Assembly: GCF_001186125.1 (NCBI RefSeq)
Contig: NW_014040341.1
Span: forward strand, 39,929-103,928
Origin: Sphaeroforma arctica JP610
Lineage: Eukaryota
Length of the DNA stretch: 64,000 nucleotides
Direction of reading: 5' to 3'
A program made the translations under genes and the position numbers. This document shows, in pieces, positions 26,143 to 50,317 of the stretch; positions within the stretch are counted from its first letter, which is position 1; each line of letters begins with the position of its first letter. The notes under the pieces were generated by a model that saw nothing but the letters and a program-made list of their open reading frames with translations, made no database searches and was not told where the DNA came from.

Positions 26143-28292
26143 TTATTCTACATCTATATCCAATGCTGCAACCAGGGATTCCATATGTCTAGCGAGGTTG
26201 ATTTCTGGTACTCCGTGAGAGAGTGGGAACCCCAGGCATTTGGAGTGTTTCGGTTCGGCATGTGTGGGCGCCAGTTTCAGGGGGAGGTAACGTGTGCTCC
26301 AATGTGCGTCTGCAAGCGTCGGCGTAATAAGCTCACCATTTATACGAAGGGTTGGCGCCGCGTGTCGCAAGTCGGTAGATCGTACTCGGGGTTTAATGAT
26401 ACCCTGTTCGAGGCCAGATTTGCGTCCCCACGCATCAATGTCATCTAAGAAGGGCTGGAGCGAAACCGATCGAGGGGCTTGGATCCGTGTGTCATCGACA
26501 AATAAATAAGAGCGGAGGAGCTTGGGCCGAAATTGTGCTAGCGTGACAGCTAAGGAATTCATGTAGATAATAAAGAGCTGGGGGCCGATGATTGAGCCTT
26601 GTAGGATGCCATTCGTTCTATGAAATAGAGACGAGAGCGTGCCGCGGTATGTCACTCGGGTAGGGACCCTCCCAAACAGCGCGCGGGGGCAGTTGATCCA
26701 GTTTTCGGGCATTCCAGCGTGACGCAGAAGTACCCATAGGCGTGGGAGAGCGACCTTGTCGTATGCCTTGGTTATGTCCAGACAGACGTCGTTCCACTCC
26801 TCTTCTGACTGTGTCTCATATTCCATGGCGGCAAGTGCTTGGGTATGACAGGAGTACCGTGATTTGAAGCCAGCTTGGGTAGCATGGGTAGCAAAGCCGG
26901 GGTGGCTCGTAATCAGATTAAGAAAGCACTTTTTAAAGATGCGTCTGACTATTTGCGTAAGCGTGATGGGGCGGAAGTCGGCGGGGGAGGTGATATTTGC
27001 ATCGGCTTTCTTTGGGTGCGCTGTCAGGAGACTACAGTTCAGGGCTGCGGGGAAGGTACCCGCCTTCAGTAGCTCAGTGAATGCTTCGGCAAGGAGTCTA
27101 ATCAGTGGGCTATTGGCGTCGGGGCGTCCTAATGTACGGCGTTCGGTAGAGCGCTCCACTGCGGCCTTCAGGAGGAGGATGTGAATCTCGTCGGGGCCAG
27201 GTCCCTTATTGGGATAGCGTAGTATTGCCTCCATTACATCGTCAAGGCGTATGGTGGAAGTGACATCAGGAGAGGGTTCGGTATCCGGTGGAACCACGTA
27301 CGGGTTCGTAGAGTTGAATAGGGCCTCAAAGTAGCCAGCGAGGGTAGCGCCTGTGTCATCGGTACCCGGTATGCAGGGTTGGCGCGGAGACCGTCGTTGG
27401 TACGCAATATCTTTGAACATTTGAGCATTGCTTTGGGCGGTCAGACGTGGCCGGAACGAGTGCTTTGGCAGCCGCTGAACCCAAGGTCTGTTTAAGTCAT
27501 AATAGAACCCTCCAAAGATTTGTGGGTTAGTGGCATAGCGCCAGATGCGGTCGAGGATTCGTAGCAGCCCTTCCGCTGGTCCATGCACATTGAGATACGA
27601 CCGTAGTAGGTTCTGATGCGCCCGAATTTCGGCTTGGAATAGTCGCGCGCGGGATTTGTATTAAGGCTATATGTATAGTCGCTGTAGTATTTGTTATGAA
27701 TATGTATATACGTGTGGATATTGCTCTGCGATTGTGTTGTAGTATCGTAGCCGTTATACTTGACCTATGTGAATGGTATATGATAAATAAGACTACTGTA
27801 ATGTTAACTAATATCCTATCCTGTATATGTCGTGCAAGTATTATATTCATGTCTCAAAGTCTACGTAAGTTTACTTTATTATTAATAACGTGTAAGTGTG
27901 TATCCTCTCGTGCAGACGTCATTCATGCATGCAGCAAGGACGCAGCCCCGGCCAGACATACCAACAACCAAGGCCGCTCGAACCTTGGACCAGCCGTCGC
28001 CGTCGTCGACTCTCACGAGTTTGAATCCGCTTACGGTATGCAGTCACCACATTCGGATCATTAAAAGCATCCGCTGTCACCCATGTGGGAGAGCCCTCTA
28101 AACTCCGATTGCTGAGCTGCCTCATTGTGGCGGTGTGACATGATGAGCCGGAATGTCGATCTCCCTTCTTTCCATAGCGATTCATCTAGCGGTGGCTCCG
28201 TAGCCCGGTGAACTAGCCGAATAATCTCCACATTAACTGGACGGTCTCTGTGTTCCGGTGGTTTGCTGCCATCCTTCTCTCGTAGATGGTAA
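26143..28292 (-). mobile_element. Non-LTR (LINE-type) retrotransposon fragment with reverse transcriptase
   Basis: ORF 26143-27588: KGPGPDEI, DFRPITL, QAGFK, LDITKAYDKV, GILQGSIIGPQLFIIYM, LFVDD. An AT-rich interruption lies at ~27650-27900; the 5' part is cut by the LTR at 28293. Confidence 0.85.
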
Positions 28293-29054
28293 TGTAATAG
28301 CCAGACCTCCACATTAGACTCTATGTTATAAACGTACTCTTAAGCAGTACGTAAATTATAACCGGTACGAGGAACTTAAGTTTCCTAATGGTCTTTAATG
28401 GTTTTATTAATTAATACCTTTTCCATTTTACATATCAAATATTTGGACGAGGCCATAAAAAGGCCCCAGTAAAATACCAAACATAAAATTTGGTCTAGTT
28501 CTATTAATAGAACTATATTTACTTTCCAAATCTATTTATATCTGAATACTTCGGTAGCGAGATGGCTCAACCGAATATAGGTTTCTAGGGACTATTAATG
28601 TTACCTAGTTGATCCTCCGATCAGCCAACCAGATGTGACAGTCTGATGAAGGCTAAGTCGGTAATTCTTGATAAGTGGTAAGTTGTTGGGTAAGACAATA
28701 ACTAAGGACATCAAGAGTTTTTTTTCCTTTTTCTTTTCTTTTCTTTTTTTCTAAAGATAGGATTTTATGAGTCTCTCGGATTCGCCCCAACGAAACATAC
28801 CATAGTTTCTAATAGAGCGACAACGAAACACTAAACAAAATCCCTTCGGCGGAAACAGTACTGAGAGGATTATATTTAGGCAATGTCTCAGCCTCACAAT
28901 CCCTGAGAGTATTGCTGTTTTCACGAGGCATACCTAACTTTACTAAAAGTCTCATTTCGATTATATACTTTGATATTTTCACAATACTTAGAATTTACAT
29001 ACGCGTTTATATACTCTAAGGCGTTGATATTGCCTTAGTAGACCGAATCTTACA
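28293..29054 (+). repeat. 5' LTR of element 1 (~762 bp)
   Basis: Starts TGTAA and ends TTACA (possibly 2 nt further, at CACA); its extent is defined by the inverted copy at 38335-39106. Confidence 0.8.
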
Positions 29055-29238
29055 CATTTTAAAGTTAGCAAAGGTATTAATTACTTAGACTACTTCAGCG
29101 TCAAGGTAGATTAACTACTACAAAAAAAATATTGTCCAAGCTAGTCCTTAAGAGATCAGCTAGCAGTCATAAGTTAAGATTATAACCAAGAAAGACAATA
29201 CTCCTTCTAAGAAGCGTAGTATAGCTGAAAAGAAAAAG

Positions 29239-31353
29239 ATGGAGAGAGAAACCTCTGTCGCTGCTGATGCGTTTAACCGCACTGTAGCCGAAGCACTTGC
29301 CTCCGACAATAATAGTCAACAGGACAATGCTTCAGATAAGGATGTAGCCACTCCGATTAAGGAGACTACTCCCTTTGCCTCAACTTCAAAGCTTTCATTT
29401 ACGAAGCCAAGAAGTGAGACAAGGGACACGTCTCAAGACGCCCCAACCCATTCTTCTGACGAAACTCAGAAAGAAAAGTTCCCAATTATAAGGGAGTCCC
29501 CAATTATAGGGGACAAGGACAAATCTCAAAAAGATCCTATATTGGAACCAGAAGAGGAGGCAAGCTCAAGTGGCAACCCCGAATCTGCGTCCGAGATTAC
29601 TAAGCTAACGCGCATAAGTAAGATAATTACTGACAACACTGATCTTAAGAATCAGTTAGCTACCCTTATGAAAGACTTGACTGTTGAGGATAACATACAC
29701 AGCACTTACGCGAGCATGTTTCTCCGGGATTACTGAAGCCCTACAGAAGTGAACAAAACGTCGACAGGCAATTACGCCCGAAGAACGTAAAGACTCGAGC
29801 GCTACACCTGTGGCATATGAGCCAGATGTGCTCAGCGTATCTATACCTAACGAGGTACTACCACCAGAACTTCAGGCTAATTACTCGCCTGTTCTGACAC
29901 CCGGCCGTGAGTCACCCATCCTTGAGGGTATTATAGACCCAGAGGCAGGTAGAAATACTCCGCCACTTTTACCCAATTGGGATGACAATCGTCGGAAACC
30001 AGTTAAAACTGGGTATGTTATCCAGACGCATGAATCACTCAAGATTATAATATCAACCACTATCCGAGGAACAGAGCACCGAAGGGCTTCAACCATGGAC
30101 TTTACAAGGGGTAATAAACACCCCCGTAAACGTGTTAACGAAGTCGAATTTAATCGCTTCGATCGCACAGCACTACATCAATCCGCAGAGAATTTTCACT
30201 TTGACGAGGTGACCGAACTTAACAAATCGGTCGACGATTATACCATTAAAATGGAAATCGCCCACGATGCGCATCATGCTGAGGATGTATTATACTTTGC
30301 TAATATGATTGCGATTAAGCAAAAGCGCATCGATCAGCTACTTCAGGCCCAACGTGGACAAGACCACAGGGATAATCAGAAGTACAAAGACAGATCAGTC
30401 GACTTAAGTCGAACTGGGATGCCAACAGTAAGCAAGTCGAGTTTATAAACATCCATGACCTCGACACGCTAACCAGTACGCTTAATGCGTTTACGGTCAT
30501 GCTGGAGACGAATGATATCGCTCCCCAGCAATGGATCTCTGCTGCAATGCAAACGTTTGACCCTACAGGTACAAGTTATTTGATCCTGCAGCGACACCAA
30601 CATGGGCTAGACACTTGTCGTGACTGGCCAGCTGTGTATTGGTTGGTTACATCCTTGTTAAGTAAGGACATGCGTAGCCTAGGACTGAGTTCAATTTTAA
30701 CTGAACCAGTTGAGAACACGCCCATTCAGAGTTATATTCTGAAGCTAGATGCTGACCTGAAACGTCCAGATATAACAAAGGACAAGGCACAGCGATGGTA
30801 CGAGCATCTGGTTATGCACGTGATCTGTAAGAACATAGGGAATAACGACCATGAGAGCCTGTACACCGAGTTACGACGTAAACACGCGACTGAGGCTCGA
30901 GACAAGGGACATAAAACAAAGTTTTATCTATTCCGACTTATGTTGAAACATTATGATACTGTATCCACCCTTTTCCCCGCACACCGAGTAACATCGAAGG
31001 GAAAAGTGGCTGTTAAGAAGCCGCGGGAGCACACCGATCACGAATACGTATCCAGGCAGACCTCAAACGAGAGACCCCAACATACACGTGCTCGCGACTC
31101 CACTCTATCCACGCGACCCAATAAACGGGCACGCGCGGAGGCGAAGGACAAGGAACCTCCATTTAAGGAGATTAAGAAATGTGCCGACGCACAGTGCGGG
31201 TATGACATGTACCAATTGACCCCTAACGGTTATTGGAATGGCAGGCATGCATTCACCTGTACACACTTTCTTTTTAAGTGCGACAAGTGTGAGAAGACCA
31301 ATGGCTATCACACTAAGTCTTGTGACAAAAAGCCCGACATTAAGTTGGAGTGA
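29239..31353 (+). pseudogene. gag: gag of element 1, frameshifted (ORFs 29239-29736, 29810-30448, 30499-31353)
   Basis: Lies between the LTR and the protease; C-terminal knuckles CADAQC..H..C and CDKCEKTNGYHTKSC. Confidence 0.7.
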
Positions 31354-31693
31354 AAGTACTACCAGGTACAATCGTTACACAGACAATACAACGACTCTTT
31401 AGATGAGCGTGTAATAATCCCTGTATACTGCCATGGAAATAAAATCCTTGCATTGATTGATCCTGGTTCAGAAATTTCATGTATATCCGATCGCTTTGCA
31501 TTAATGTAAGATATCGAAAGGAGAAGTACTACCAGGTACAATCGTTACACAGACAATACAACGACTCTTTAGATGAGCGTGTAATAATCCCTGTATACTG
31601 CAATGGAAATAAAATCCTTGCATTGATTGATCCTGGTTCAGAAATTTCATGTATATCCGATCGCTTTGCATTAGTGTAAGATCTCGAAAGGAG
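31354..31693 (+). repeat. 170 bp tandem duplication covering the aspartic protease active site
   Basis: 31354-31523 and 31524-31693 are nearly identical; both encode KILALIDPGSEISCISDRFA. Confidence 0.9.
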
Positions 31694-32099
31694 AACACAA
31701 ACAACTCACCTCATTTTAGCATATGATAAAACTTCTACGTGTGATACCATGGCCACAGATGTTAAAATCTCCCTGGCCGATGATAGGAGTATCACTACCC
31801 AAGCTGTGATAGTTAAGATGTCACAGAAGTACGACATTATAGTCGGAATGAGCGATTTGCTCACTCTAGGTATAACCGTAACTGGTCTACCAAATAACAT
31901 AGATCCATTAAGGGATCAGTCAGACGATAACTGTCTGAATCCATATAAGCCCCCGTCAGACACAGTCAAGGCATTAATACCTGACTTTGCGAACAAAATC
32001 ATAGATCTGATTCTAGTTAATAAGAAGATAAAAATCACAGATTGGGCAAAATTCCGTTTTAACGACGGGTATGTCAGCCTAGACTTAACCAAGGTGGAT

Positions 32100-33305
32100 T
32101 TTATACAGTCAAAGTGTCCCTCAAGGAACTATGTATCCTGGAGACATGAGGCTGTGGTACAAGGACAAGTTGAGAAATGGCTAGCAGATGGAGTGATAGA
32201 AATTAACTATCAACAGACGTCAGTTAACTTGGCACTGACATAACTCTGACGGATCATTTAAAAAAGTCAGAGTATGTTTAGATATGAGTCCGATAAATAA
32301 ATTATTGCCGACTCATAGCTTTCACTTACCTCGTATTAACGAGCTACTGCGAAGCATGGAAGGTGCTACAGTATTTACAACTATAGACTTTATATAAGGA
32401 TACCATCAAACGCAGGTATATGAACCAGATCGTAAATAATCTAGTTTTACATGGAAAGGTAAACAATACAGGTTCAGAGGTGCACCTTTCGGGTTNNNNN
32501 NNNNNNNNNNNNNNNATAGATGACATAGTCATCTTTTCTAAAACTAAGGGCGAACACGCCGCATTAGTCGGACGAGTCCTTAAGAGACTCAACGAGCAAC
32601 ACTTCAAGATTAACGAGAAGAAATACTTCGCAATGAGCGAAATACAGCTCTTAGGCTACCATATATCTGGGGAAGGTATTAAAATCGACCCCGGTAAGGT
32701 AGAACACCTGTTAGATTGGCGAACACCATTTACAGGAAGAGATGTTAACAGCATGTGTGAGTTTGTATACTTCTTTTCAAATGGAGTACTACACTTAGCT
32801 GACTACCTTAAACCTTTTGGACACAAGATATCATAAAAGTAAACTAGGAGACTTGTGGACTAAAGAGTGTGATGACGCATTTAAAACGCTCAAACACGCA
32901 GTCCATCAAGCCCCTGTTGTACAAGGACCGATCGATGGCGTGCCGTTTGAAATAGCAACGGACGCCTCCGATTTAGCCTTAGGAGGAGTATTATATCAGG
33001 TTATAGATAACAAACCTAGATATATACAATTCTTTAGTCGAGCAATGAATGCTTCACAGTTGAATTATCCAACTGTTAAACAAGAGCTATTAGCCATAGT
33101 GGCAGCTCTAACACACTTCCGAGATTACTAATATGGAACAGCATTTACGCTGATGTGTGATCAGAAATCTCTTCAATATATGAAAAAGATGAACCCCGAC
33201 TCACAATTACTGAGTCGCTGGCATGATACAATATCAAAGTTTAATTTTGATATAAAACATCTGCCAGGAATACATCACCATTTACCGGAAATGTTATCAC
33301 GCTTC
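32100..33305 (+). pseudogene. pol: Gypsy-type reverse transcriptase and RNase H with stops and frameshifts
   Basis: VEKWLADGVIE; KVRVCLDMSPINK; FTTIDFI*GYHQ; GAPFG-gap-IDDIVIFS; LLGYHIS; PFEIATDASDLALGGVL; NYPTVKQELLAIV; FNFDIKHLPG..LSR. Confidence 0.9.
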
Positions 33306-33347
33306 GTACCGAACTTTAATAAATCCGTACGTGAGTTACTAGCCACT

Positions 33348-33746
33348 GACTGGAAATGTAATCCCAGGTAGTTTGAACTGGCTCAAAATATAATTAGGCC
33401 ACATACCATAGATATGTTTGCTGCACATCATAATGCACAACTATCGAATTACAGGACTTTAAATCATCCTTTGGGAGAAGCCTTTCAAATAGACCTCTCC
33501 AAACATAATGCGTGGGCTAATCCACCATGGCAGTTAATTGCCCAGCTATTAAATTTTGTTCATATACATAAAGCTACCATCACGTTGTGTTGCCCATTAC
33601 GGAGTAAAGATCCATGGCTCAATAAATTAATAAGCATGATACAATGCGAGCCAATACATTTAAATAGGGAAGTAGATACTTTCCTATATCAGGGTACCCG
33701 AGCCGTCCAGAAGACGCCCTGGAGACATACTATAATATGTCGTATA
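33348..33746 (+). CDS. DNA N6-adenine methyltransferase-like (phage Dam / DIRS MT type) domain within pol
   Basis: DWKCNPR*FELAQNIIRPHTIDMFAAHHNAQL..EAFQIDLSKHNAWANPPWQLIAQLL..KATITLCCP....PW...L...EPIHL. SAM-binding-like IDMFA and catalytic NPPW (33519-33530). Same frame as RNase H and the integrase N-terminus. Confidence 0.85.
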
Positions 33747-34199
33747 GGTCCCATTGGAATAACCAAATGGACCCCTTCTGAGACCTTCCTTAACAAGGTC
33801 AAAGAATCAGAGGTTCCACTCTCTACTAAATTGAACGTCAAGCAGTTCAAAGGCAACACAGCACTTGAAGTCTGTGCACAAGAAATACAATCTACTAATG
33901 ACACTACTGCTAAGAAGCGTCAGTCTCTAGCTAGAACTCTGTTTAGTAACATAAAGTCCAAGCCCGAGGTCTTTCAAACCCTATTTCCAAAGGGATTAAT
34001 GAAAAACAATCCTGAAGCGTATAAACATATAATGCGACTATTTAATAAGTCAGGTGTATCTAACGCACATGAGCATACTTATAACACTCATGCGAAAGCA
34101 GGACAGGAGTCTTGAAATACTACAGACTTAGAGACCACGCAAGTGGATTCTCAACACCCTACCTTTATTCTGGAGGAGCAGAATGATGAAAACATTCTT

Positions 34200-35391
34200 G
34201 CTTGGCTGACGCAAAATCATAAGCTGAAGCACCAAAACGTAGTAGACGCACTTAAAGATGCTAAGCGAAATGGGATCGCGTACCCTAAGCTGGCAACTTT
34301 AGTTGACAGAGTATATCCGTCATGTACAGACTGTGATCTCAATCTGATCAAGCGTTATGGGTTCGCACCGCTTAAGAGTGTGACTGATGATGTTCCATAG
34401 CGCAGGGTCATCATTGATCTGGTTAACCTACCCACGTCCGAGCACACAGGCGACCGTTACGTATGCCACTTCTTTGATGTGACATCACAGTTTAATTTGC
34501 TTTATCCATTAAAGGATAAGAATACGCAGACCGTGGCAGAATTATGTTGCCAAGTCTTTGCTGACCACGGGTGGCCAGGTATTATGTGCACTGATAACGA
34601 TAGTGTGCACTGAAAACGGTAGCGAGTTCTACGATGACGTAATGGAATCGCTAGTACTCGTATCAGGCATATGCCATAAAAGAGGTGTGCCATACAAGCC
34701 GCAAACGCAAGGCACGAATGAAACGCACCATAGAAGACTTAAGTTCTTCTTGCGTACTGCATTAACGAATGATGCAGATGATTAGCCGTACCACCTTAAG
34801 TGGGTACAAACACATATGAACGAGTGTGCTGATCCGGTTACAAGAACTACACCCGCTCACTATTTTCGTGGCGGATATAGTGAGTTACAAATACCCTTTA
34901 ACAAGGACGAACCTGATCACCACGAGTTACCATGGTTAGAGAAGGTACAACGTATTTATAACGTTGTATATCCTTGCTTGCGAGAAATACGCAATATAGC
35001 CTTATTAAAAAGGCAAAAGCGTTGGAACCCTACCAAGAAGATAGCAGAGTATCAGGTCGGTGACAGAGTTAATATCCGTCAACGTAATTCCGATGCTACT
35101 GTATTAACATCTAAATGGATAGGTTCATATATAATCTCTGTAGCAGACACTAAAAGTGGAATATACGAGGTAAATAACCCCGATGGTTCTAGTGCGCTTA
35201 ATATAGGCACAAGTCGTATTCCGACTACAGAGATTATACTCGTAAGAAGACATGACTCTAATGCCCCTCTTGATCGTTCTGAATTTAACGACACTATATG
35301 GAGAACGGATAAGGGAGGCTATACATACTATCGTACACGCTTTATCGGACCTGATAAGTTGTTAGAGTACAATGTAGTAGACTTAAAATAA
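34200..35391 (+). pseudogene. DDE integrase of element 1 (HHCC zinc finger, core, C-terminal extension)
   Basis: HKLKH..CTDC; P*RRVIIDLVNLP; FDVTSQF; TENGSEF; VPYKPQTQGTNE; YQVGDRVNIR..LTSKWIGSY (GPY/F-like). Confidence 0.85.
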
Positions 35392-35876
35392 AGTGCAAAT
35401 GTATGTATTTATTTCTGACCTCACCTTTGGTTTTATACCTAAAGTGTTTGTGCTAGTGTTCAGCCGCTTGGGCTGGCCAGGGTAAAAACTCAAATGGTCA
35501 GTATGAGAAACCTTATGCGGAACACTTTAACACTTCGATGCTTTTCTATTTCAACTTCTCTGCAACTAATCTCACGCTGATCACATGAGGCCTTTCCGCA
35601 TAGGTTGTGACTCACATAGAACCGCAGCTATTAGTAATATGTTGTGGTTGACAGGCTTAATCCACTCTCGGGAATCGGTTGAGAAACCAAATCTGCTCTC
35701 GGAAGTCGGTTAAGTAATAACTCAACTCTTGAGAGTAATTTGAGCAACTTGATTAGCTCTCGGGAGTAAGCTACCTCTGATGACTTAGCTCTCGGGAGTG
35801 AGCTAATTCTGATGACTTCCATAAATCAAAGATGGTTTCTTGCTGTAAAATCTGGCCTGAGATCTGTAATCTCTCA
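35360..35876 (-). repeat. Possible Copia-type LTR truncating the 3' end of element 1
   Basis: On the minus strand, PPT-like TTGAGGGGGGG (35887-35877) is directly followed by TGAGAG and ends ..CTCTAACA at 35360; it lies downstream of a minus-strand Copia RNase H; internal short repeats (tagctctcgggagt). Confidence 0.35.
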
Positions 35877-36283
35877 CCCCCCCTCAATTTTACAATCAAC
35901 AAGGGCTGAAGTCTGAAGGCTGAAAATTGGAAACTAAAGACTAATGAAGGCTGAAGACTTAAGACCTGGATTGTGAAATTGCTGACTTTGTAGATGGATT
36001 GGGCGATAAGTGTTGAACCAATGTATATTTGTCGAAGACGATTACGAATTGGTGCTGTTGAGTATTGTCTCGATGAAAATTGTTGAAAACGTTGATTTTT
36101 CTGAAAAGTAGACGATCTCCTGTACAATGACAGGCTTCACGACTGGCGTGGATAATCTTATGTACGGTGGACAGGCATCACAATTTCGCAGGTAAAAATA
36201 CTCGAGATTTTCTTGAAAAATGAATTTTGCTTACTGAATCGGTGTATGGGGGGGGGGGGAGCAGCCAGTGTTAGGTTGTGGTC

Positions 36284-36796
36284 CCTGTAGGGCCTGTGGG
36301 CTGTGAAATTCCCAATTTTGTTTGTATCCTGCGAGTGAATTTCTATACAAATTGTCACAGGTATGCAACTTTTACGATATCACGCAAAAAATTAAAACCA
36401 GTAAGTTACTAATATTATGTGTATTGATGAATACAAATTGTCTGCGGGATTCAACTCTAACTTCAGAGTATTTTATGTCAAAACACAGTCGCACAAGTAA
36501 ATACTTGGGTGTTTATCGATAGGAACAATTATATGGGTTTTCCTGTAGGGCCTGTGGGCTGTGAAATTCCCAATTTTGTTTGTATCCTGCGAGTGAATTT
36601 CTATACAAATTGTCACAGGTATGCAACTTTTACGATATCACGCAAAAAATTAAAAGAACCAGTAAGTTACTAATATTATGTGTATTGATGAATACAAATT
36701 GTCTGCGGGATTCAACTTTAACTTCAGAGTATTTTATGTCAAAACACAGTCGCACAAGTAAATACTTGGGTGTTTATCGATAGGAACAATTATATG
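36284..36796. repeat. 258 bp-period tandem duplication
   Basis: 36284-36535 and 36542-36796 are near-identical. Confidence 0.9.
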
Positions 36797-36982
36797 AACA
36801 AATATATAGTTATATATTGCGTGTACATTATTTATAATTTCATTTTTACGTATAATACAAACAGTTTGTACACACTCTTTTCACAAGGTACGATATATCT
36901 GTATATTTTGCAGTCAGAGATAGAAGCACAAAGCTTTTGGTACCTGCTTACCTTAAAATACTTACCTTTATTATAAATTGGA

Positions 36983-37245
36983 CTATGTTGATACTGGCAT
37001 CCGAGTTATTAGTCTGTCGCGTATGTCGGTAAACTTCTTTCGGCTGAGTGGCTTCGTGAAGAAACCACTGAGTAGCTGTCCTGAAGGTATGTATTTTAGC
37101 TTGAGGATGTTGTTCGATGTGAGTTCCCTGATGTGATGATATCGTAGATCGACATGTTTTGTACGGCGGGATTTCGTGATACCATTTCCCATCAGTATTG
37201 CTGACTTGTTGTCCTGTTCTATGTTGGTGGGTTCTACGAGCGGAA
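36983..37245 (-). mobile_element. Ty1/Copia RNase H C-terminal fragment
   Basis: EQDNKSAI..RRTKHVDLRYHHIRE..LKYIPS..QL..FFTKPL..KF is the Copia pol C-terminus. Confidence 0.88.
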
Positions 37246-37780
37246 TGCCGATGCTGACCATAATGGGGTTGTTAGTGATGTTGCTGAGGACAGTCCGAGT
37301 GTGAATGATGCCTTAGGGGCGTCGTTGGCTGGCACGGAGTGGGTCCAATTGGATGCGCCGGCGAGTTTGCAGTCAGGTGAGGTCTTGCAGCCTAAGGACA
37401 CTTTGGCTAGCCCGGGGCCAGTCCAGTCGGACGTACCGAGCACTTTGAATTGGGTGGGGTCGTGGAACCAAGGGACACCACCTTGGCTAGCACGGGGACA
37501 GATTATATGCAGGATCCGTTCGCGAGTATGATGGGTGAGGATTTTGGATCCAGTGACACCCCAGCTCTCGACGAGCAAGCCATGGACGACAGTGCATTTC
37601 TTGTACTTTTACATGCACAAAAATTTTATTATTGTTGTTTTACATTTAAGCAAGATTTTGCAGATTTGTGAGTCGGTTGTCAGTTGTCACACTCACCGGC
37701 ATTTGAACCTGACAAAAATAGAAAAATCAAATAAATTTTTTTGCGTCGAAACCAGTTGTCATAATTTTCATTTACAGCAC

Positions 37781-37941
37781 TGGAAAGTCACTAAATGTAC
37801 ATAAAAAAGGTCTCTATATGTACTTTTTAAACTTCATTTGAAACGAGTTTGAGGAAGAACTTGAATATCACATTTAGCGAATTTGATTGAGCAATTAGAA
37901 AACGTACCCGTATATTTGTATGTACATTCAGTGACTTTCCC
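37781..37941. repeat. Small inverted-repeat-bounded element (MITE-like)
   Basis: ggaaagtcactaaatgtacata (from 37782) pairs with tatgtacattcagtgactttcc (37919-37940). Confidence 0.5.
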
Positions 37942-38334
37942 ATGTAGGCCATGTACACTTAGAGTATTTCCTCATATCAAAAGGTGAAGATGTGAAAATC
38001 AAAGGTGACACTGGAGCCGATACAATCCGACGAGCGTAAACGAAGGTGCTGACAATGAAAACGGTGACTATGAGCCTGAAGTATGACAAGGACTCGAGGC
38101 TGAAGAGATAAAACTTCCGAGTGAGGCTGTTGACTTTCTCGTCGAAACACCAAGAGCCCCTAGACGCCCTTCATTTGCAATATGCGCTAAAGTAGGATTC
38201 CAAGAAAGAATGGCTGAGGAGTGGATGAAAGAACGCAAGGCGACAAGATATGCGAAAGAGGGGCCAAAGCAAGTGCAACTCGCTTGATTCACCGATGTAT
38301 GTCTGAGATTTGGGATAAAGACTCTATACGGATG

Positions 38335-39106
38335 TGTAAAATTCGGTCTATCAAGGCGATATTAACGCCTTAGAGTAATTAAACGCGTAGGTTAAGTCTA
38401 AGTATCGTGAAATTCGAAGTAAATAAACGAAATGGGTCTTTTGGTAAAGTTAGGTATGCCTCGTGAAAATAGCAATACTCTCAGGGATTGTGAGGCTGAG
38501 ACATTGCCTATATATATTCCTCTCAGTACTGTTTTCGCCGAAGGGATTTTGTTTAGTGTTTCGTTGTCGCTCTATTAGAAACTATGGTATGTTTCGTTGG
38601 GGCGAATCCGAGAGACTCATAAAATCCTATCTTTAGAAAAAAAGAAAAGAAAAGAAAAAGAAAGAAAAACTCCTGATGTCCATAATTATTGCATTAACCA
38701 ATAACTTGCCACTTATCAAGAATTACCGACTTAGCCTTCATCAGAATGGCACATCTGGTTGGCTGAACGGAGGTTAAACCAGGTAACGTTAATAGTCCCT
38801 AGAAACCTATATTCAGTTGAGCCATCTCGCTACCGAAGTATTCAGATATATATGGATTTGGAAAGTAAATATAGTTCTATTTATAGAACTAGACCAAATC
38901 TTATGTTTGGTATTTTACTGGGGCCTTTTAATGGCCTTGTCCAAATATCTGATATGTAAAATGGAAAAGGTATAAATTAATAAAACCGTTAAAACCCATT
39001 TAGGAAACTTAAGTTCCTTGTACTATTAAGAGTACGTTTATAGTTTACGTACTGCTTGAGAGTACGTTTATAACATAGAGTCTAATGTGGAGGCCCGGCT
39101 AATACA
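38335..39106 (-). mobile_element. Inverted full-length copy of the element 1 LTR (probable solo LTR)
   Basis: Reverse complement aligns along 28293-29054; flanks GATG (38331-34) and GATA (39107-10) are a 3/4 TSD-like match. Confidence 0.85.
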
Positions 39107-42100
39107 GATACAGACTTTTCAGAGTCATTGAAAACTAAAAAGTGGCACGAACTACTTAGACAGTTCGAACAGGCTTGTTCGTAGGGTTTAATTGGTAGGC
39201 TATAAAAACTACCTAAATGATTTATCTACACTAATAACCGATTATGTTACATCACAAAGTGTGATGATGATCATACACCCCTAGCCGATTGAGCGAAGCA
39301 AATTTTAGCCTGGGTTTCTGTGGAGCCACCATCTTAGATGTTATCCGAGGTCATGATTTGCAAGGAACCGTCATTGGATAAAATGTCTTTCGAAATTCAT
39401 GGAAGAATATTTCCGCTTACGTCACCGCAAGCCTTGAAACACCAAGACCACAAGAAAACAAAGCTCAGGCTTCAGAAGAAGATGATGAGGTATGACTGCG
39501 TGGCCAGATCCAACCCAGCTTTGACATTAGATCAGGTAAGCATAAGGAAGCCAATCTGTTTTGAGCCATTTTCTTACAAGTTTACGAAGTTGGCGAAGGC
39601 GAAAGCTAACTGTGACGCAATCAAAGTCGTCGTAAAGTTAGAGTGAGATTAAACGTACATATTCAATATGGAAATATCACATTAATGTTCACACGCTCAT
39701 TTTGACATTGAAAATGAACTGAACATTTAAAGACACTTTCACATCTAATTTAATAGGGACATTCTATGACTTTCTCTGACATAACTATTTTAGATATCAA
39801 AAGAGCCTTCCGTTAGGCGGAGACTAGTTTTATTGTTTGGCTCCTTTATAAGAATAAGCGAGGAAAATAGTGTATCATAAGTACATTTTCAGACTTTATC
39901 GTCCTGTGGAGAACTCGTGGCATAGTCCCGGAAACACAATTACTTCAGGTCACGGGCGTGGTGTGGGTTTTATGCTAATACTATCCCATCAGCACAAAGC
40001 AATCCTCCTTTTGAGTAATGCCACTTGCACTGAAGCCATATGTGATATCATCTGCAGGACAATGATTCATTCATAGTACTAAACATCCAAATTGTTCATC
40101 TGAAAAACCCAAATAGTTGGCGCAACAATTTTTTTTTTGCAGTTTGACAATTGTTAATTTTCAATATGCATTTTCATGATTCCAAAGAGTCAGTACCGAA
40201 TATATTTCGGAAACCTGTGTAGGCCCCCTTGGTCATATGCCTGCCACCTTACGAAGCTTGTGCAAGTCCTTCAACAGCTCTATATGCATCAGCATCACAA
40301 AAGCGAATAGTCTGAGGACAACTGAAATAAGCAACAATTTCACCACCGTACCCATAGTAGTTGTTACATTTGTACACGTTCCTTGTATTTGAGTAACACT
40401 TCATACATGCAAAAGTACACTCGCGAAAGTATACGGAGAACTTGTCACGATCACTCTGTATACCATAAAGCAACTTTACGAGTCTACTGTTGTGGAGTTG
40501 TGTCGAGGCAGTATCTGGAGTACTTGAATGTTCCTATCTTCTCGAAATCTTCCACCTAAGTGGCTTCTTATGTGACCATATAGATTAATCGTGTAGTCTT
40601 GTCTGCATTCACCAGTTTAGAGATGTGCTCGTTTGACTCGTGATGAGGTGCGTTGATGTACTTAACCATTTTCATGTTCTTTATAGGAGACCTACCTCTT
40701 GACAGGATTGTTTTTATTTGTATAAATTCATGCGCAGAATCATGCGGGGTGTGTAGTTGACTGCTTCTGTCTGATACAATCTGGTAGAGGTTTATAGACT
40801 GATTGCTTTGGGTTAAATGTCTATACACCTGACATCATGGATACTGTTCTTTAGTTTCTTAAACCTTGAGAGATTCTTTCTGTGACTACTCAAGTACAGG
40901 TGAAAGACTATTTCTCTGGCGACTGCTTCGGTAATAATGTGAGCTGCCTTTTTCACAATCAGCCTCATCATTATCAATTTCTGAGAACAAAATAAAATCT
41001 ACACTCCTTTACTGATGAGATTTCTCCATGACAGCTCTTCTACGGCTTACTGCAGTTACTCTAAAACATACTTATAACTTATTAGGCTGTATATGTGTAC
41101 CGCCAGGTTTATCTTTTCATAAAATAGTGGAACATTTGTAGCCTTCGGTCTCCATCATATGTGTGTGTCGACTCATACTGTATTTATTATAGAAGAAAGC
41201 TATATCTATCTAAATAAGATAAAGCTCACTGTACCTCAAGTTATAATATTAAAACCACTTGGTAAAATCTCTATATGTAAGACAACGCCATACAGTATCG
41301 ATAACCTTTGTTTATTTACATGTAGTACAAGTAGCTCCGGAGCCTGATATAAGATCAGACTCTCGGCGATATTGGCATTCAATACTGTCTCGATCAGAAA
41401 ATGTAATGGTTTCAGGTAGTCGGAAACTTTTAGAAATAGGTATTAGTAGTGCAAGCGATTGGCGGCTGAAGAATTTAGTAGTTTTCTGAACAGTCAGTTT
41501 CATTTAGTCTTGTGCAATTCTAAAAAGATTAAATTAAAATGTTCGTAGTACACCTTCAGGCCATGTAAAGCTGTTTAGAACTGAAAAAAAGAGAAAACAA
41601 AACAAAATCAATACGCGGCTATTTACGTCCAAACCGTCACGAGTTTGAATGAGAAGTAATCCTTGCGAGAAGGTCTTGAAGAAATGCGTCAGAAACAGCA
41701 AACATATAAACTTTAGGGCCCATGCTCTGAAGTCTGTGTAATCAAGCAACCAGAGATGCTTAGCAAATTGTTTGAGTAGTGCAAGTGAGAGATTAAGCAT
41801 TCAAATCTGCACCTCACTATTCCGAATTAACTCATTACTTCCCGGAGTTAAATCTCAAAAATCTTAAAGGATAACATTGAAGAAAAATTCTCATCGCAAT
41901 GCATTACCGCAGTCATGACAGAAGATGGACAAGCGTTCACGTTGAACTAATATAGCCCCATATCACGATCTGCCCATAGCACACGAACGCATGGTTACCA
42001 AAAAAACTAATTCGTTGGCACTTTTGAGGAGTTTCATGTAAAACCGAATAACTCAAACAGAGACCTAATTTCATTTGAACTCATATACCAGTGTACTCGT

Positions 42101-44175: not shown

Positions 44176-44675
44176 TGTAATGTCAACCATGTTTATCTCC
44201 GATTTAAAACAAAACAATGCTGGTGTTATAAGTACCGAACTGTTCGGTAATGTTCCTGGGCGTTAATAAGAGTGTGAGAACTTTTAAGTGTGGGCGATAA
44301 CTGATAGGTGTGAAAACTAACAAGTTTGAAAAGTTCTAAGTTGTATTGTGCGGTTTGTTGGCGAACGGCCGCGCAGGCTCGAAAGAAGAGGAGGTTGGTG
44401 TATGATTGGTGTTTTGCGAACCGAAGTGCGGGGTAATATGAGCTGGAGGTTGGCAGACGACGATATATGTTGAATGGACTTGTAGGCTCGAAATTGAGAA
44501 GATACACGTTTTGATTGGCGGCCGGATTCTCAAGGAAATCCTTCAGAGATAGTAAAAATACGTGGTTTAATTCATTCAAGAAGTTCATTCTGCTAAGGTA
44601 GACGTTTATTCAACAATCGAGGAAACAAATCTAAGTTCACCGTTACATTGTGTTTTGAGTCGATCTAAGATTACA
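44176..44675 (+). repeat. 5' LTR of element 2
   Basis: TGTAAT...ATTACA; direct repeat of 49839-50317. Confidence 0.95.
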
Positions 44676-45167
44676 AATAAACGTTAGTGGAAAATGATTT
44701 ACGAGAAGGATAATACAGCTGGGACTGGGTAACCTCTCTGGAGATATGTGAGAGGGGAGCCGATGACGACACTTATGGATCGATGGGATTACGTCAGGGG
44801 TACCAAGGCTTATGAGCTCGAGGCGAAGAAAGGAGGGTCCCGCCCAGCGATGGCTCTTTTGAAGGAGATTACACCGGAGACGAAGTCGGAACTAGAGGGC
44901 TATATCAGCAAGACTTATTGAGACGAGGGATCTGTACATCGCGGCTGCAGCATTGTATCCAGCGTTTAAGGACCCATTTGAAGCGAGTGGAACCCAGGCG
45001 GATTTTGCGAAGGCAATAGGAGGGTGAGAATCCAAGCCTGAAAAGGTTATTGATCATCTTCGTGAGATTTATTACTATGGTGCTCGGCATGTTGCGGCGA
45101 AAGCTGAAGCAAAGAAAGTGCTCCCAGAACGGGATCCATTTACTGAGGTGCCTTCTGAGGACGAACA

Positions 45168-46128
45168 NNNNNNNNNNNNNNNNNNNNNNNNNNNNNNNNN
45201 NNNNNNNNNNNNNNNNNNNNNNNNNNNNNNNNNNNNNNNNNNNNNNNNNNNNNNNNNNNNNNNNNNNNNNNNNNNNNNNNNNNNNNNNNNNNNNNNNNNN
45301 NNNNNNNNNNNNNNNNNNNNNNNNNNNNNNNNNNNNNNNNNNNNNNNNNNNNNNNNNNNNNNNNNNNNNNNNNNNNNNNNNNNNNNNNNNNNNNNNNNNN
45401 NNNNNNNNNNNNNNNNNNNNNNNNNNNNNNNNNNNNNNNNNNNNNNNNNNNNNNNNNNNNNNNNNNNNNNNNNNNNNNNNNNNNNNNNNNNNNNNNNNNN
45501 NNNNNNNNNNNNNNNNNNNNNNNNNNNNNNNNNNNNNNNNNNNNNNNNNNNNNNNNNNNNNNNNNNNNNNNNNNNNNNNNNNNNNNNNNNNNNNNNNNNN
45601 NNNNNNNNNNNNNNNNNNNNNNNNNNNNNNNNNNNNNNNNNNNNNNNNNNNNNNNNNNNNNNNNNNNNNNNNNNNNNNNNNNNNNNNNNNNNNNNNNNNN
45701 NNNNNNNNNNNNNNNNNNNNNNNNNNNNNNNNNNNNNNNNNNNNNNNNNNNNNNNNNNNNNNNNNNNNNNNNNNNNNNNNNNNNNNNNNNNNNNNNNNNN
45801 NNNNNNNNNNNNNNNNNNNNNNNNNNNNNNNNNNNNNNNNNNNNNNNNNNNNNNNNNNNNNNNNNNNNNNNNNNNNNNNNNNNNNNNNNNNNNNNNNNNN
45901 NNNNNNNNNNNNNNNNNNNNNNNNNNNNNNNNNNNNNNNNNNNNNNNNNNNNNNNNNNNNNNNNNNNNNNNNNNNNNNNNNNNNNNNNNNNNNNNNNNNN
46001 NNNNNNNNNNNNNNNNNNNNNNNNNNNNNNNNNNNNNNNNNNNNNNNNNNNNNNNNNNNNNNNNNNNNNNNNNNNNNNNNNNNNNNNNNNNNNNNNNNNN
46101 NNNNNNNNNNNNNNNNNNNNNNNNNNNN
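45168..46128. other. Assembly gap inside the gag of element 2
   Basis: Run of N. Confidence 1.
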
Positions 46129-49100
46129 TAATTTCCATCGAAGTTTACAATGCTAAGAAGAAGAAAGGAGTGCCTGCAGTGAAGGCAGCTACAGTAGGGA
46201 AGAAGGCTGATGCATCAGACAAGCCAAGGGCAGCAGCTAAGTTGAAGATAGAGGCTAAGCAGAAACGGCGTGAGTATGATGCTTTGTGCAAGGTGATTCG
46301 TAGGAATGCTAAGAAAGCGAAACAGCATGGGGCACGCTGGATGGTTCCTATGCTGAGGGATGATGACTATGTGGATATGCTGCTTAAATTGGCAAATGAT
46401 GTGTGCTCTAAAGATGTAGTGATGGAGGGTTTAAAAGGATTGACTGAGCGGTGTATAAATCTGTTGAAAGCCTTATTTGCGAGTCGCAAATCGGAGAAGA
46501 ACATGGTTCTGAGGATGTTTGAGGCAGGAGGGTTGGGGCAGGTGCTGGAGCAATTGTCTGAGATGAGAGAAGACGACATAGCGCGTCAAGAAGAGCGGGA
46601 ACAAGCGGGCCGGAGACATCAGGCGAGGGTGGCCACGAGAGCAGGACAGTTGCAAGCAGCAGCAGCTAGACAGGAGTCCAGGGTTTCAGGGATGACAGGT
46701 CTGAGAGGGGCTTGCTTGTTTTGCAAGCAGGATGGTCACTATGTGAAAGAGTATTCTGTGTTAAAAGACGTGGTATGTCATACGTGTAGCAAGAGAGGTC
46801 ATACTCCGAGATTCTATCCTACAACACGATCCGGGGGTAATGTAGCGGCAGCAGCGTCTGGGGAGGTGCGTATGAGTGCAGATGGGACACTTGAATTGTG
46901 ACATGCGGCGGCGGCTAGTTATGAAGGACCAGGCCAACCGTTGATCTATAGTTATGTGGAGAGTGGACAGTGTTATGTCGATATGTATGTTGATCAAGGC
47001 GCCGATATATCGATGATTTCTAAGGGTTTGGCAGAGCGTCTGGGGCTGGTTGCTCAGTATGATTTGTCTGGAGAGTGGGTTATGGGGTTTAGTGCTCCGC
47101 TTCATGTGGAATACAAGGTGCGAGATGTTGAGGTTGTTTTGCCTACTTTAGTAGGAGAAAGGAGGGTTAAGTTGGATATGTGGGTTATGGATTGGATTCC
47201 ACACAATGCGGGTATGTTGTTAGGTAGACGTGAATTGAATGGGTATGGATTAACTGGGGCAGTACTCACTAGGCAAGGGGTGACTAAGTATACACTGTTT
47301 CCGATTGAGGTGGTAAGAGATAAGCCATCAGACTTTAAGACCTGGCTGAACAAAAAGGCGTCTGAGCCGGTGCTAGATTATATTCAGCATGTGGCGGCGC
47401 CGTTATTATATGGGGTTATGATTCAGGTTATGAAAGTGATGGATCCGGGGGTGAGGACGATTATCTAATGTTCGATACGAGTGGCTTGGAACTGTTGACT
47501 GAAGAACCGGGGAAGTCTATGGAAGAATTGGCAGAGTTGGTGGCGGCTATTAGGAGGGTGGCGTACAATGACAAGAAACCGAAGTTTGTGAAGGATCGGA
47601 TGCTTAAGCTTCAGATCAAAGAAGGAGGGGCGCCTTTGAAACAAGTATATGCGGAGAAGATGTGCGCCTTATAGAAGTGATGATGAAGAAGATACAACTA
47701 TTGCTTGAAGCTGGGTTGATAGAGAGGGTGCAAGATACGGATTGGCTTACAGTGCCGAAACTTGTGCCGAAGAGATGGAGAATGGCTTCCTGTGGGCGTT
47801 GTGAGTTCCAAGATAGGTTTCCATGCTAATTTGTCTCCGACAGATAGAGAGTTGATAGCGCTAGCATTTGGGGTTTTGAAGTTCGCGGGTTTGATTAGGA
47901 GATCGTACGAGGAGCTTATAGTAGAGATGAATCATCAGCCTTTAATTGGTGTGGTTCAGCAGTTAGAGTTCACGTCGGATCCAGTTGGGTACGAGACGGT
48001 ACAGGAATGTTATGTATGTACGATCGTTTGATATGGATCTACGGTACCTGGAAGGGCCAAAGAACAAAGTTGCGGATGGACTTAGTCGTATACCGTGATG
48101 ATTTGATCCTATTATGGTGCCTGTGTCGGTAGAGGGTGTTAAGTTCGCTGCATGTGCAAAAATGAGTCTGCCAGAGATTGATGAAGGTGTGGATTTGTCA
48201 TTTGATAACGTCTGCAAGAGTGTGGAAGACAGGAGGGTCCGGCTGGCGGTGGTTAAAGAGAAGCTGCGAGTGTTAGAGGAGGGTCTTGATGACAAGGTCA
48301 GTGCCGACTTGTGTGGGTTTATTGCATCAGCAGGTTACTGCAGTGATGGAGAGAGGTATTACTAAGATGTGGGATCCGGATGTAATGGCTAGCGAACGGC
48401 TTAAGTGTATTGGTCTAAGTGTATGGTCAGAACTTGTTCAGCCTTTGCAAGTTTAGCGCATGCTGGGGTAGATAGGATATGGGAGTTCCTGAAGGTTAAG
48501 TATGGAGAGGAAGTGGTGCTTTCGCAGGTTGTGAAGGTTTTGAAGAGTTGTGTTGCGTGTCAACAAGTTGAGGGGCTTCGTGGGACTACAGGGTTGTTAA
48601 TGCAGCCTGAGAGGCCGAAAAGGGGTTGCAGTGTGTATAGGCATGGATCATTTGACCTTGCCAAGGACAGTTCACGGTTTCGAAGGTATAGTAGTGGCCA
48701 TAGATCATTTTTTCGAGGATGGTGTGGTGTCGGCCATACACGTTGGAAGAGAAGAATACTAAAGGGGTATTAGAGTTTGTTCAACAACAAGTGTTGCCTT
48801 GGGGTACACCTAAGAAGGTAGTGATGTATGAGGGTGGTCCGTTCGCTTCAGCAGATATGAAAAGTTTCTGGGCAGAGAGAGGTGCAGAATGCCATTACGT
48901 ATCAGTAAATAGGCATCAGGGCAATGGTAGGGCAGAGAGGGTCTTGCGTACGATTGTGGATTGGCTTGCTAAGAGCTTGCCGTTGGGGAGGAGACCTTGT
49001 GGCCAGCACATATATATTCAGTTATGTTGGCGTACAATGCGACAGTGAATTCGGCCACAGGTATTAGCCCATACTATCATGTTACGGGCCGGCATTATAC

Positions 49101-49838
49101 GGGGCAGGTTGATAGAGTAATTCAGGCGAAGTTGTTAGAGGTGATAGGTTCTGAGCTTCTGAGTGAAGCTGCTATGCGGGATAGATCGGTGGCCATTAGA
49201 GATGAAGTAGCGAAGGCGGCGCAGGCAAAGGCGGCAGACAAGAATAGAAAAGAGGCACCAGATTGGCAGCCGGGGCAGTTGGTTTGGTATACTGGTAGGT
49301 CGAAGGATAATAAATTGGCGAAAACCTATTTAGTGAGAGGCACGATTGTTATGAGGGAACACTTACAAGGGATGTACAAAGTCAGAGTTAATGGGAAGGT
49401 TAAGTCAATACATGTGGATCAGCTTAAGGTGAGGTTAGAGGATCCGAAGCATGAGGCCAGTATTAGAATGCGTAGGAGGGAGGCTTGTTTGATCTGGCTC
49501 TACAATTATACTGGTGAAGGGGCAGCTAGTGTTACAGAACTTGATGAAATGGTGGCAGTAATGCGATCAACAAAGATGGAGAGGACTTGGTTATATGCCA
49601 TGAATTCAGCTTTTGGTATAGATGTTGACACGATAGTCGATGCGGCGAGGCGAGGTGAGAGTAAGGGCGTGGTAGAAGATACTTTGGATTTGGCTATGAA
49701 GCATCACTTCAATAAGAACAGGTAGAACAAGTTGCAGATGTTCTTCCAGGTTGCGAGGGATTCGATTTTGCGGAAGAAGCAGTTGAGTAAATGGATGAAT
49801 GAATGAACTCGACACTAGTGTCTTGTTCATTGGGGAGG

Positions 49839-50317
49839 TGTAATGTCAACCATGTTTACCTCCGATTTAAAACAATGTTGGTGTTGTAAGTACCGAACTG
49901 TTCGGTAATGTTCCTGGGCGTTAACAAGAGTGCGAGAACTTCTAAGTGTGGGCGATAATTGATAAGTGTGAAAACTAATAAGTTTGAAAAGTTCTAAGTT
50001 GTATTGTGCGGTTTGTTGGCGAACGGCCGCGCAGGCTCGAAAGAAGAGGAGGTTGGTGTATGATTGGTGTTTTGCGAACCGAAGTGCGGGGTAATATGAG
50101 CTGGAGGTTGGCAGACGACGATATATGTTGAATGGACTTGTAGGCTCGAAATTGAGAAGATACACGTTTTGATTGGCGGCCGGATTCTCAAGGAAATCCT
50201 TCAGAGATAGTAAAAATACGTGGTTTAGTTCATTCTGCTAAGGTAGACGTTTATTCAACAATCGAGGAAACAAATCTAAGTTCACCGTTACATGTTTTGA
50301 GTCGATCTAAGATTCCA
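49839..50317 (+). repeat. 3' LTR of element 2
   Basis: Preceded by PPT TGGGGAGG and followed by TSD GTTC. Confidence 0.95.

What the first reader, a model, noticed from the sequence alone, without database searches (positions are those of the whole stretch)
33348..33746. Ty3/Gypsy LTR retrotransposon with an adenine-methyltransferase-like domain between RNase H and DDE integrase
Seen: in one reading frame (ORFs at 32817, 33153, 33414 and 34143 share it), Gypsy RNase H is followed by DWKCNP..PHTIDMFAAHHNAQL..EAFQID..AWANPPWQLI..KATITLCCP..PW..EPI, then a ~150 aa linker and an HHCC/DDE integrase. Established: this motif string matches the phage Dam-like MT domain that DIRS tyrosine-recombinase retroelements carry after RNase H, and [DNS]PP[YFW] is the catalytic motif of amino-methyltransferases. 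Standard Ty3/Gypsy pol has no such domain. Inference: a Gypsy lineage that captured or retained an MTase and could write 6mA (or 4mC) on its own cDNA or insertion site, for protection, expression or self-marking. NPPW is intact although this copy is decayed. I cannot confirm from here that the architecture is unreported.
Basis: partly seen in the sequence, partly recalled or inferred. Interest (0 to 1): 0.88.

Follow-up and report, generated by a model that had tools for sequence, protein, structure and literature searches.

The report
Decayed methylase-carrying Gypsy retrotransposon
This is a broken copy of a multi-copy Gypsy-type jumping gene that carries an adenine-methyltransferase-fold domain between its RNase H and integrase, which it likely uses to mark its own new copies; the design, and likely this very lineage, was described in a 2026 preprint, so it is a real but known thing.

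Summary
RNase H, a Dam-like (PF05869) domain with NPPW at 33519-33530, a 150-aa linker and the HHCC/first two catalytic Asp of a DDE integrase share one frame. This copy has stops, frameshifts and no 3' LTR. Two intact relatives (64-72% identical over the domain) carry RT-RH-MT-IN in one ORF and are colinear with the window. The RT groups with integrase-bearing Gypsy elements (100/100), not inside DIRS-like ones. The domain folds as an N6-adenine methyltransferase, and differences shared among other copies are mostly synonymous (10 of 13), so it is a selected family trait. It is not new: bioRxiv 10.64898/2026.05.21.726589 describes 'DAM-LTRs', including a chromodomain-less ichthyosporean lineage, and the named nearest relatives here are from Abeoforma whisleri and Sphaeroforma arctica. 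This scan has also noted such elements on other DNA (23 notes, at least 3 genomes). Activity is unproven: the preprint's E. coli assay was negative. My small additions are the selection signal and that the closest solved structure is the RNA cap methyltransferase PCIF1 (Z 10.0), not T4/EcoDam (Z about 7), which keeps an RNA or hybrid substrate open.

The parts
28293..29056 (+). 5' LTR-like repeat, TGT...ACA ends
   Evidence: 91% identical to a second copy at 38332-39106; high contig depth
29173..30448 (+). two broken ORFs of low-complexity protein in the multi-copy part, likely the gag N-terminus
   Evidence: ORFs; no Pfam hit; multi-copy; gag label inferred from position
30376..31353 (+). gag-like ORF with Cys/His-rich C-terminus
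   Evidence: ORF of 325 aa; no Pfam hit; label inferred from position
31402..31850 (+). aspartic protease, disrupted by a 170-bp tandem duplication (31354-31693); end approximate
   Evidence: PF13650 E 8.5e-4; tblastn to P0004; repeat D16
32209..32824 (+). reverse transcriptase core, broken by stops, frameshifts and a 20-N gap (32496-32515)
   Evidence: RVT_1 E 1.3e-7; tblastn 60-73% to P0003/P0004; tree
32856..33302 (+). Ty3/Gypsy-type RNase H (stop at 33129)
   Evidence: PF17919 E 2.7e-30, PF17917 E 1.9e-28
33339..33752 (+). Dam-like / PCIF1-like N6-adenine methyltransferase-fold domain (stop at 33369)
   Evidence: PF05869; AF2 pLDDT 90.3; fold matches; 64-72% to intact relatives
33519..33530 (+). 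NPPW strand-4 catalytic-type motif
   Evidence: no difference listed at these codons among other copies at 8% or more of depth
33753..34202 (+). 150-aa poorly conserved linker (stop at 34113)
   Evidence: 27-31% identity to relatives against 64-74% for RH and MT
34203..35391 (+). integrase: HHCC finger, DDE core (stop at 34398, frameshift near 34600), C-terminal tail without chromodomain hit
   Evidence: rve; integrase profile E 1e-38 and 1e-19; tblastn to P0004 residue 1286
35392..36026 (+). multi-copy 3' region, likely the 3' UTR; no 3' LTR follows; end approximate (bin edge)
   Evidence: depth stays high to this bin and then falls more than 10-fold in all 4 runs
38332..39106 (-). separate solo LTR of the same family in the opposite orientation
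   Evidence: flanked by single-depth contigs 37780-38364 and 39077-39500; no matching target-site duplication seen

Best explanation
This is a decayed, 3'-truncated copy of a multi-copy Ty3/Gypsy LTR retrotransposon whose Pol carries an N6-adenine methyltransferase-fold domain between RNase H and integrase, likely a member of the ichthyosporean DAM-LTR lineage, and in intact copies the domain likely methylates adenines on the element's own new cDNA. Shown: architecture, family-wide presence, Gypsy-type RT, fold, NPPW motif, excess of synonymous differences among copies. Inferred: the MT is made as part of Gag-Pol and packaged; it likely stays joined to RT-RH (15 residues away) and is cut from integrase in the variable linker; it would act in the particle on single-stranded or hybrid intermediates; host AMT1 would then maintain 6mA after integration and favour expression (the preprint's model). 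This copy cannot express it. Confidence in the identity is about 0.93; the number given is for identity plus mechanism.
For: Intact P0003 (RT-RH-Dam-IN, 1376 aa) and P0004 (PR-RT-RH-Dam-IN, 1400 aa). P0004 residues 20-1286 are colinear with 31402-35346, one HSP spanning RH-MT-IN. 14 of 271 proteins collected have RT-MT-IN. The window RT sits in a 10-row RT-MT-IN clade (100/99) with an Abeoforma protein, on the integrase-bearing side (100/100). Best solved match of P0003 is Ty3 Gag-Pol, E 3.4e-71. Fragments of the family are S. arctica SARC_08637 and SARC_02119. Fold hits to phage DNA N6-adenine MTases, E 1e-8 to 1e-6, TM 0.65-0.71. NPP[WF] in 16 of 17 close relatives I grouped. Shared differences 10 synonymous to 3 non-synonymous, private ones 0 to 9, Fisher p 4.6e-4. 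The preprint reports more 6mA and expression on DAM-LTRs in S. arctica and A. whisleri.
Against: The preprint's E. coli expression of DAMs gave no rise in 6mA. Iyer et al. call DIRS1 MTase domains likely inactive. Intact P0004 has CPPW in place of NPPW. The closest solved structure is an RNA enzyme, PCIF1. The window domain and P0003 score below Pfam's Dam cut-off (20.1 and 26.2 against 28.1). My MT tree does not resolve the S. arctica-type and Abeoforma MTs as one supported clade. The AU test does not reject the family as the branch nearest the DIRS-like stem (p 0.63 quick, 0.068 careful). 6mA enrichment could follow from transcription rather than from this enzyme (inference).
Confidence: 0.48

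Rival explanations
1. The domain is kept for a non-catalytic job: binding the element's RNA or cDNA, folding or processing of Pol, or mimicking PCIF1; 6mA on copies is written by the host.
For: Negative E. coli assay; Iyer et al. predict inactivity and RNA binding or mimicry for the DIRS1 version; CPPW in intact P0004; N is replaced in 28 of 150 aligned motifs (F 14, H 8, C 2, other 4). Purifying selection fits this too.
Against: NPP[WF] is kept in 16 of 17 close relatives and 38 of 43 DIRS-like rows, with a DxFA-type upstream motif, which is more than a purely structural role would need (inference).
Confidence: 0.25
2. The domain is a PCIF1-like RNA methyltransferase that puts m6A or m6Am on the element's own transcript or on the RNA strand of the hybrid.
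For: Top solved match is PCIF1/CAPAM: Z 10.0, rmsd 3.6, 145 aligned, against T4Dam Z 7.4 and EcoDam Z 7.2; Foldseek ranks 1-3 (E 1.2e-3 to 2.5e-3). PF12237 (PCIF1) matches 11 of 98 aligned relatives. Iyer et al. place DIRS1 MTases in the PCIF1 clade. It would explain a negative genomic-DNA assay.
Against: Predicted phage DNA N6-adenine MTases match better than any PCIF1-like protein (E 1e-8 against 2e-5), and PF05869 matches 84 of 98. The domain lacks PCIF1's helical domain, which binds substrate and helps cap recognition. A shared fold shows no substrate.
Confidence: 0.2
3. A DIRS-like element with inverted terminal repeats that swapped its tyrosine recombinase for a DDE integrase; the inverted pair at 28293 and 39106 would be its ends.
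For: A 775-bp, 91% inverted pair flanks the element. MT follows RH as in DIRS. The AU test cannot exclude a basal RT position.
Against: The 2.3 kb before the second repeat is low-copy and the repeat sits between single-depth contigs. Nesting the RT inside DIRS-like rows is rejected, p 2e-5. The window RT scores 137 bits on a Gypsy profile and 68 on a DIRS-like one (the Gypsy set came from hits to P0003, which biases this). Protease and Ty3-type RH are present.
Confidence: 0.04
4. A one-off nested insertion or assembly chimera joined a DIRS fragment to a Gypsy copy.
For: The region is a nest of mobile elements with an N gap and local duplications.
Against: Intact single ORFs with the same order; the MT bin is as deep as its neighbours in 4 of 4 runs.
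Confidence: 0.01

Closest known systems
Ichthyosporean DAM-LTR lineage (Fernandez-Moreno et al., bioRxiv 10.64898/2026.05.21.726589; whole main text read, supplements closed)
   Same: Dam domain in a Ty3/Gypsy Pol, no chromodomain, NPP triplet; nearest named relatives are from two of its three named species (A. whisleri, S. arctica).
   Different: No difference shown. The text does not state the domain's position for this lineage and I could not see figures or sequence tables, so identity with their exact family is likely, not proven. Their text does not mention PCIF1 (0 hits) and describes no selection test.
DIRS1-type retrotransposon Pol (RT-RH-MT; PMC3783388, passages read)
   Same: Homologous MT directly after RNase H; DxFA and NPP[FW] motifs.
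   Different: DIRS lack protease and DDE integrase and use a tyrosine recombinase and ITRs; this element has protease, Ty3-type RH, DDE integrase and a Gypsy-side RT.
Phage PF05869 DNA N6-adenine methyltransferases
   Same: Best predicted-structure matches, similar size (TM 0.65-0.76).
   Different: 10-20% identity; embedded in a polyprotein; score under the Pfam cut-off; target unknown.
PCIF1/CAPAM cap-specific m6Am methyltransferase (PMC4738411, PMC8287941, passages read)
   Same: Closest solved fold (Z 10.0); NPPF-type motif; same clade according to Iyer et al.
   Different: No WW or helical domain; 12% identity.

Membership tests
Ty3/Gypsy LTR retrotransposon | Pol order PR-RT-RH-IN | tested here: met
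Ty3/Gypsy LTR retrotransposon | RT groups with Gypsy | tested here: met
   100/100 split from DIRS-like rows; best PDB match Ty3; no outgroup, basal position not rejected
Ty3/Gypsy LTR retrotransposon | HHCC + DDE integrase | tested here: met
Ty3/Gypsy LTR retrotransposon | Two direct LTRs with target-site duplication | tested here: inconclusive
   only a 5' TG..CA repeat; this copy has no 3' LTR; no genome held
Ty3/Gypsy LTR retrotransposon | Primer-binding site and polypurine tract | tested here: inconclusive
   no TGG after the LTR; one purine run at 36248, outside the multi-copy part; possible self-priming match
Ichthyosporean DAM-LTR lineage | Dam domain in a Gypsy-type Pol | tested here: met
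Ichthyosporean DAM-LTR lineage | No chromodomain | tested here: met
   no Chromo hit in window tail, P0003, P0004 or the 7 other proteins of the RT clade, one of which (P0130) ends inside the integrase
Ichthyosporean DAM-LTR lineage | Occurs in Pirum, Abeoforma, Sphaeroforma | tested here: met
Ichthyosporean DAM-LTR lineage | One clade in the DAM tree | tested here: inconclusive
   145 columns, not resolved as one supported clade; the RT clade is supported
Ichthyosporean DAM-LTR lineage | 6mA enrichment and expression of copies | not testable with these tools
   contigs only
DIRS retrotransposon | No protease and no DDE integrase | tested here: not met
   both present
DIRS retrotransposon | RT inside the DIRS group | tested here: not met
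   AU p 2e-5 for nesting; DIRS-like rows are defined by architecture, none carries the name
DIRS retrotransposon | Tyrosine recombinase | tested here: inconclusive
   no hit in six frames of 28293-39109, but that scan also missed the integrase
DIRS retrotransposon | Inverted terminal repeats as part of the element | tested here: not met
   second repeat lies beyond low-copy DNA
PF05869 Dam / N6-adenine MTase | Pfam curated cut-off | tested here: not met
   20.1 bits (window), 26.2 (P0003) against 28.1; close relatives pass, e.g. P0126 43.5, P0132 53.8
PF05869 Dam / N6-adenine MTase | Rossmann-like MTase fold and [DNS]PP[YFW] motif | tested here: met
PF05869 Dam / N6-adenine MTase | Methylates adenine in DNA | not testable with these tools
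   published heterologous assay on representatives negative
PCIF1/CAPAM | WW and helical domains beside the MTase domain | tested here: not met
   domain is 138 aa between RH and linker; no such hits

The most novel reading that the evidence does not exclude
The retrotransposon 'DAM' is a PCIF1-related enzyme that methylates the element's own RNA, or one strand of the RNA-DNA hybrid inside the particle, rather than genomic DNA: a retrotransposon-encoded m6A/m6Am writer. That would explain the failed E. coli assay, and the intact NPPW copy P0003 would allow the test.
Probability: 0.2. Interest if true: 0.7.

Novelty: already known. Interest (0 to 1): 0.2.

Why it matters
If active, the domain would let a retrotransposon write an 'active chromatin' mark on itself in hosts that use 6mA. 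That idea and this lineage are already in a preprint, so the finding mainly confirms it. What remains open is the substrate. The intact NPPW (P0003) and natural CPPW (P0004) relatives, the selection signal and the PCIF1 link give a concrete pair of proteins and substrates to test.

Tried and rejected
No whole genome is held, so full-length copies could not be mined. Sequence search of the MT against the PDB: 0 hits; profile search gave PCIF1 only at E 0.91. PHROGs: weak only (DNA methyltransferase phrog_111, E 0.026). No related loci in metagenome or viral contigs. No RNA holder listed among runs. Atlas: unnamed eukaryotic clusters at 0.95, one set with PF05869 on 14% of members; a lead only. 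AF2 of RH+MT: both domains confident, pTM 0.55, low-confidence linker, so no fixed packing predicted. No tRNA genes in the window. ApT is not enriched in the element (observed/expected 1.0). PMC8931429 passages gave nothing on PCIF1 acting on DNA or hybrids. The inverted-repeat (DIRS-like ends) reading and the nested-insertion reading were considered and rejected (see rivals). Earlier findings by sequence and by place: none. Literature searches; 'DAM-LTR' occurs in 1 paper only.

Full report
Observation. Read with X at stops, the frame gives Ty3-type RNase H (E 2.7e-30 and 1.9e-28), Dam PF05869 (E 5.4e-4 on the 157-aa stretch, 20.1 bits, under the cut-off of 28.1) and a weak rve hit. A profile of relatives that excludes the window's own family scores the domain 145.3 bits; the best of 1000 shuffles scores 12.8. 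The copy is decayed: stops at 33129, 33369, 34113 and 34398, frameshifts in PR/RT and near 34600 in the integrase, and a 20-N gap in RT.

One element, one family. A search with the MT region among longer proteins found 2 of 11 candidates: P0003 (1376 aa) and P0004 (1400 aa). Both are open ORFs with RT-RH-Dam-IN; P0004 also has the protease. P0004 residues 20-1286 align in order to 31402-35346 at 54-61% identity, with RH, MT, linker and the integrase N-half in one HSP. Window identity to the two is 69-74% in RH, 64-72% in MT, 27-31% in the linker and 43-53% in the integrase part tested. A profile-free HMMER search of 1.84 billion representatives gave 274 hits at E up to 1e-3, 150 listed. Of 271 proteins collected, 14 have RT-MT-IN, 4 MT-RT-IN, 7 MT-IN and 45 RT-MT without integrase; 43 of these 45 I treat as DIRS-like by architecture, the other two being short Gypsy-type fragments. 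Contigs of 4 runs from 4 studies show the stretch 28287 to about 36026, MT included, at far greater summed depth than the flanks (not a copy number). At three of the four stops (33129, 33369, 34398) about 99% of the depth differs from the window, so these are private to this copy; 34113 was not among the rows shown.

Ends. A 765-bp TGT...ACA repeat starts at 28293; a 91% identical copy lies inverted at 38332-39106. This looked like DIRS-type inverted ends, but the DNA between about 36030 and 38330 is low-copy, the second repeat is flanked by single-depth contigs, and I saw no shared target-site duplication. I read it as a solo LTR; this copy lacks its 3' LTR. Direct LTRs in other copies were not shown.

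Phylogeny. RT tree, quick, 84 rows (51 MT-bearing, 32 of 94 non-MT RT-IN rows, the window): DIRS-like rows form one side, support 100. Careful tree, 48 rows (three long DIRS-like rows, P0137, P0155 and half of the remaining DIRS-like and non-MT rows dropped): same split at 100/100; the window sits with P0003 and P0004 (100/99) in a 10-row clade (100/99) in which every row is RT-MT-IN. Against this: the AU test does not reject the family as the branch closest to the DIRS-like stem (p 0.634 on the quick tree, where the held tree was even better by 9.4 lnL; p 0.068 on the careful tree). Nesting inside DIRS-like rows is rejected (p 2e-5). There is no outgroup. The MT tree (77 rows, 145 columns) groups the window with P0003/P0004 (100/100) and 42 DIRS-like rows together (100/94), but does not resolve the ichthyosporean-type MTs as one clade, so I did not test the direction of transfer. 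Named relatives: P0123, P0124, P0126 are Abeoforma whisleri proteins; P0138 and P0145 are Sphaeroforma arctica fragments, 67% and 82% identical to the window over 45 and 34 residues; P0138 is 71% identical to P0004 over 155 residues. The host is therefore likely an ichthyosporean; no tool named it.

Fold and motifs. AF2 with 98 sequences: pLDDT 90.3, pTM 0.86. Against predicted viral structures the best named hits are phage DNA N6-adenine methyltransferases (E 1e-8 to 1.7e-6, TM 0.65-0.71), then giant-virus PCIF1-like proteins (E 2.3e-5). Against solved structures Foldseek has no hit under 1e-3; ranks 1-3 are PCIF1/CAPAM. The wide search gives PCIF1 Z 10.0, rmsd 3.6, 145 aligned, then RNA methyltransferases at Z 7.4-8.4, T4Dam 7.4 and EcoDam 7.2. 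In 154 aligned domains the motif is NPPW 59, NPPF 55, other 36 or gapped 4 by first residue tally (N 122). In a set of 17 close relatives that I grouped by hand it is NPPW 14, NPPF 2, CPPW 1; the CPPW is the intact P0004.

Selection. One run laid on 33300-33790 listed 22 differences at 8% or more of depth. The 13 shared by part of the other copies are 10 synonymous and 3 non-synonymous; the 9 at which 95% or more of depth differs from the window (private decay) are all non-synonymous, the stop included. Fisher p 4.6e-4; against a 25.6% synonymous expectation p 1.5e-4. Limits: one run, depth-weighted contigs, my own 95% cut, no matching test on RH or IN. This shows constraint on the protein, not catalysis.

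Mechanism. Established for Ty3/Gypsy (own knowledge): Pol is packaged, cleaved by the protease and reverse-transcribes in the particle. The MT begins 15 residues after the RH end in this family (5-11 in six DIRS-like rows, 16-94 in other LTR-type rows) and is separated from integrase by a variable linker, so it likely travels with RT-RH (inference; AF2 predicts no fixed packing). I favour methylation of the element's own nascent cDNA (0.48), over a non-catalytic role (0.25) or RNA methylation (0.2).

What is known. The preprint 10.64898/2026.05.21.726589 (whole main text read; figures and supplements not seen) reports Dam domains in Ty3/Gypsy elements, five lineages, one in Pirum, Abeoforma and Sphaeroforma arctica without chromodomain; more 6mA and expression on these copies; and a negative E. 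coli assay. DIRS MT is described in PMC3783388 (passages). PMC4738411 (passages) puts DIRS1 MTases in the PCIF1 clade and calls them likely inactive; the preprint text has no mention of PCIF1. PMC8287941 (passages) describes PCIF1's NPPF motif and helical domain. PMC6338049, PMC8931429 and PMC6317226 were seen as passages only. The scan's own notes hold 23 similar findings in at least 3 other genomes; they are unchecked and I found the preprint before seeing them.

Verdict. Real, correctly read, already described. Interest 0.2.

Noticed in passing
window 28408-28421 and 29070-29083: A 14-nt exact complement joins a site inside the LTR to a site 13 nt past its 3' end; RNA 28400-29110 folds these together, z -4.3 on 20 shuffles (start chosen after seeing the match). 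No TGG primer site follows the LTR. Possibly Tf1-like self-priming.
   Followed up: partly
window 31354-31693: 170-bp tandem duplication (98%) at the gag/protease junction; a similar 255-bp one at 36284-36796. Real or assembly artefacts.
   Followed up: no
window 26143-27660 (-): 505-aa open RT ORF (RVT_1 E 1.9e-18), non-LTR type by recalled motifs, just upstream of the LTR.
   Followed up: no
window 44211-50168: A second LTR element with 300-bp direct repeats (97%), protease and integrase remnants and a long N gap; no MT hit.
   Followed up: partly
window 36983-37312 (-): Fragment resembling a Copia RNase H end (label recalled; no Pfam hit).
   Followed up: no
proteins P0137, P0155: Polyproteins with endonuclease/exonuclease/phosphatase (PF03372), then Dam, RT, RH and integrase; P0155 also has a protease. 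An odd DAM-LTR order, long RT branch; may correspond to the preprint's Euglena group (not checked).
   Followed up: no
proteins P0044, P0086: Chromovirus-type polyproteins with the Dam-like domain at the N-terminus, before protease and RT.
   Followed up: partly
protein P0004: Intact 1400-aa Pol of the same family with CPPW instead of NPPW: a natural variant for assays.
   Followed up: partly
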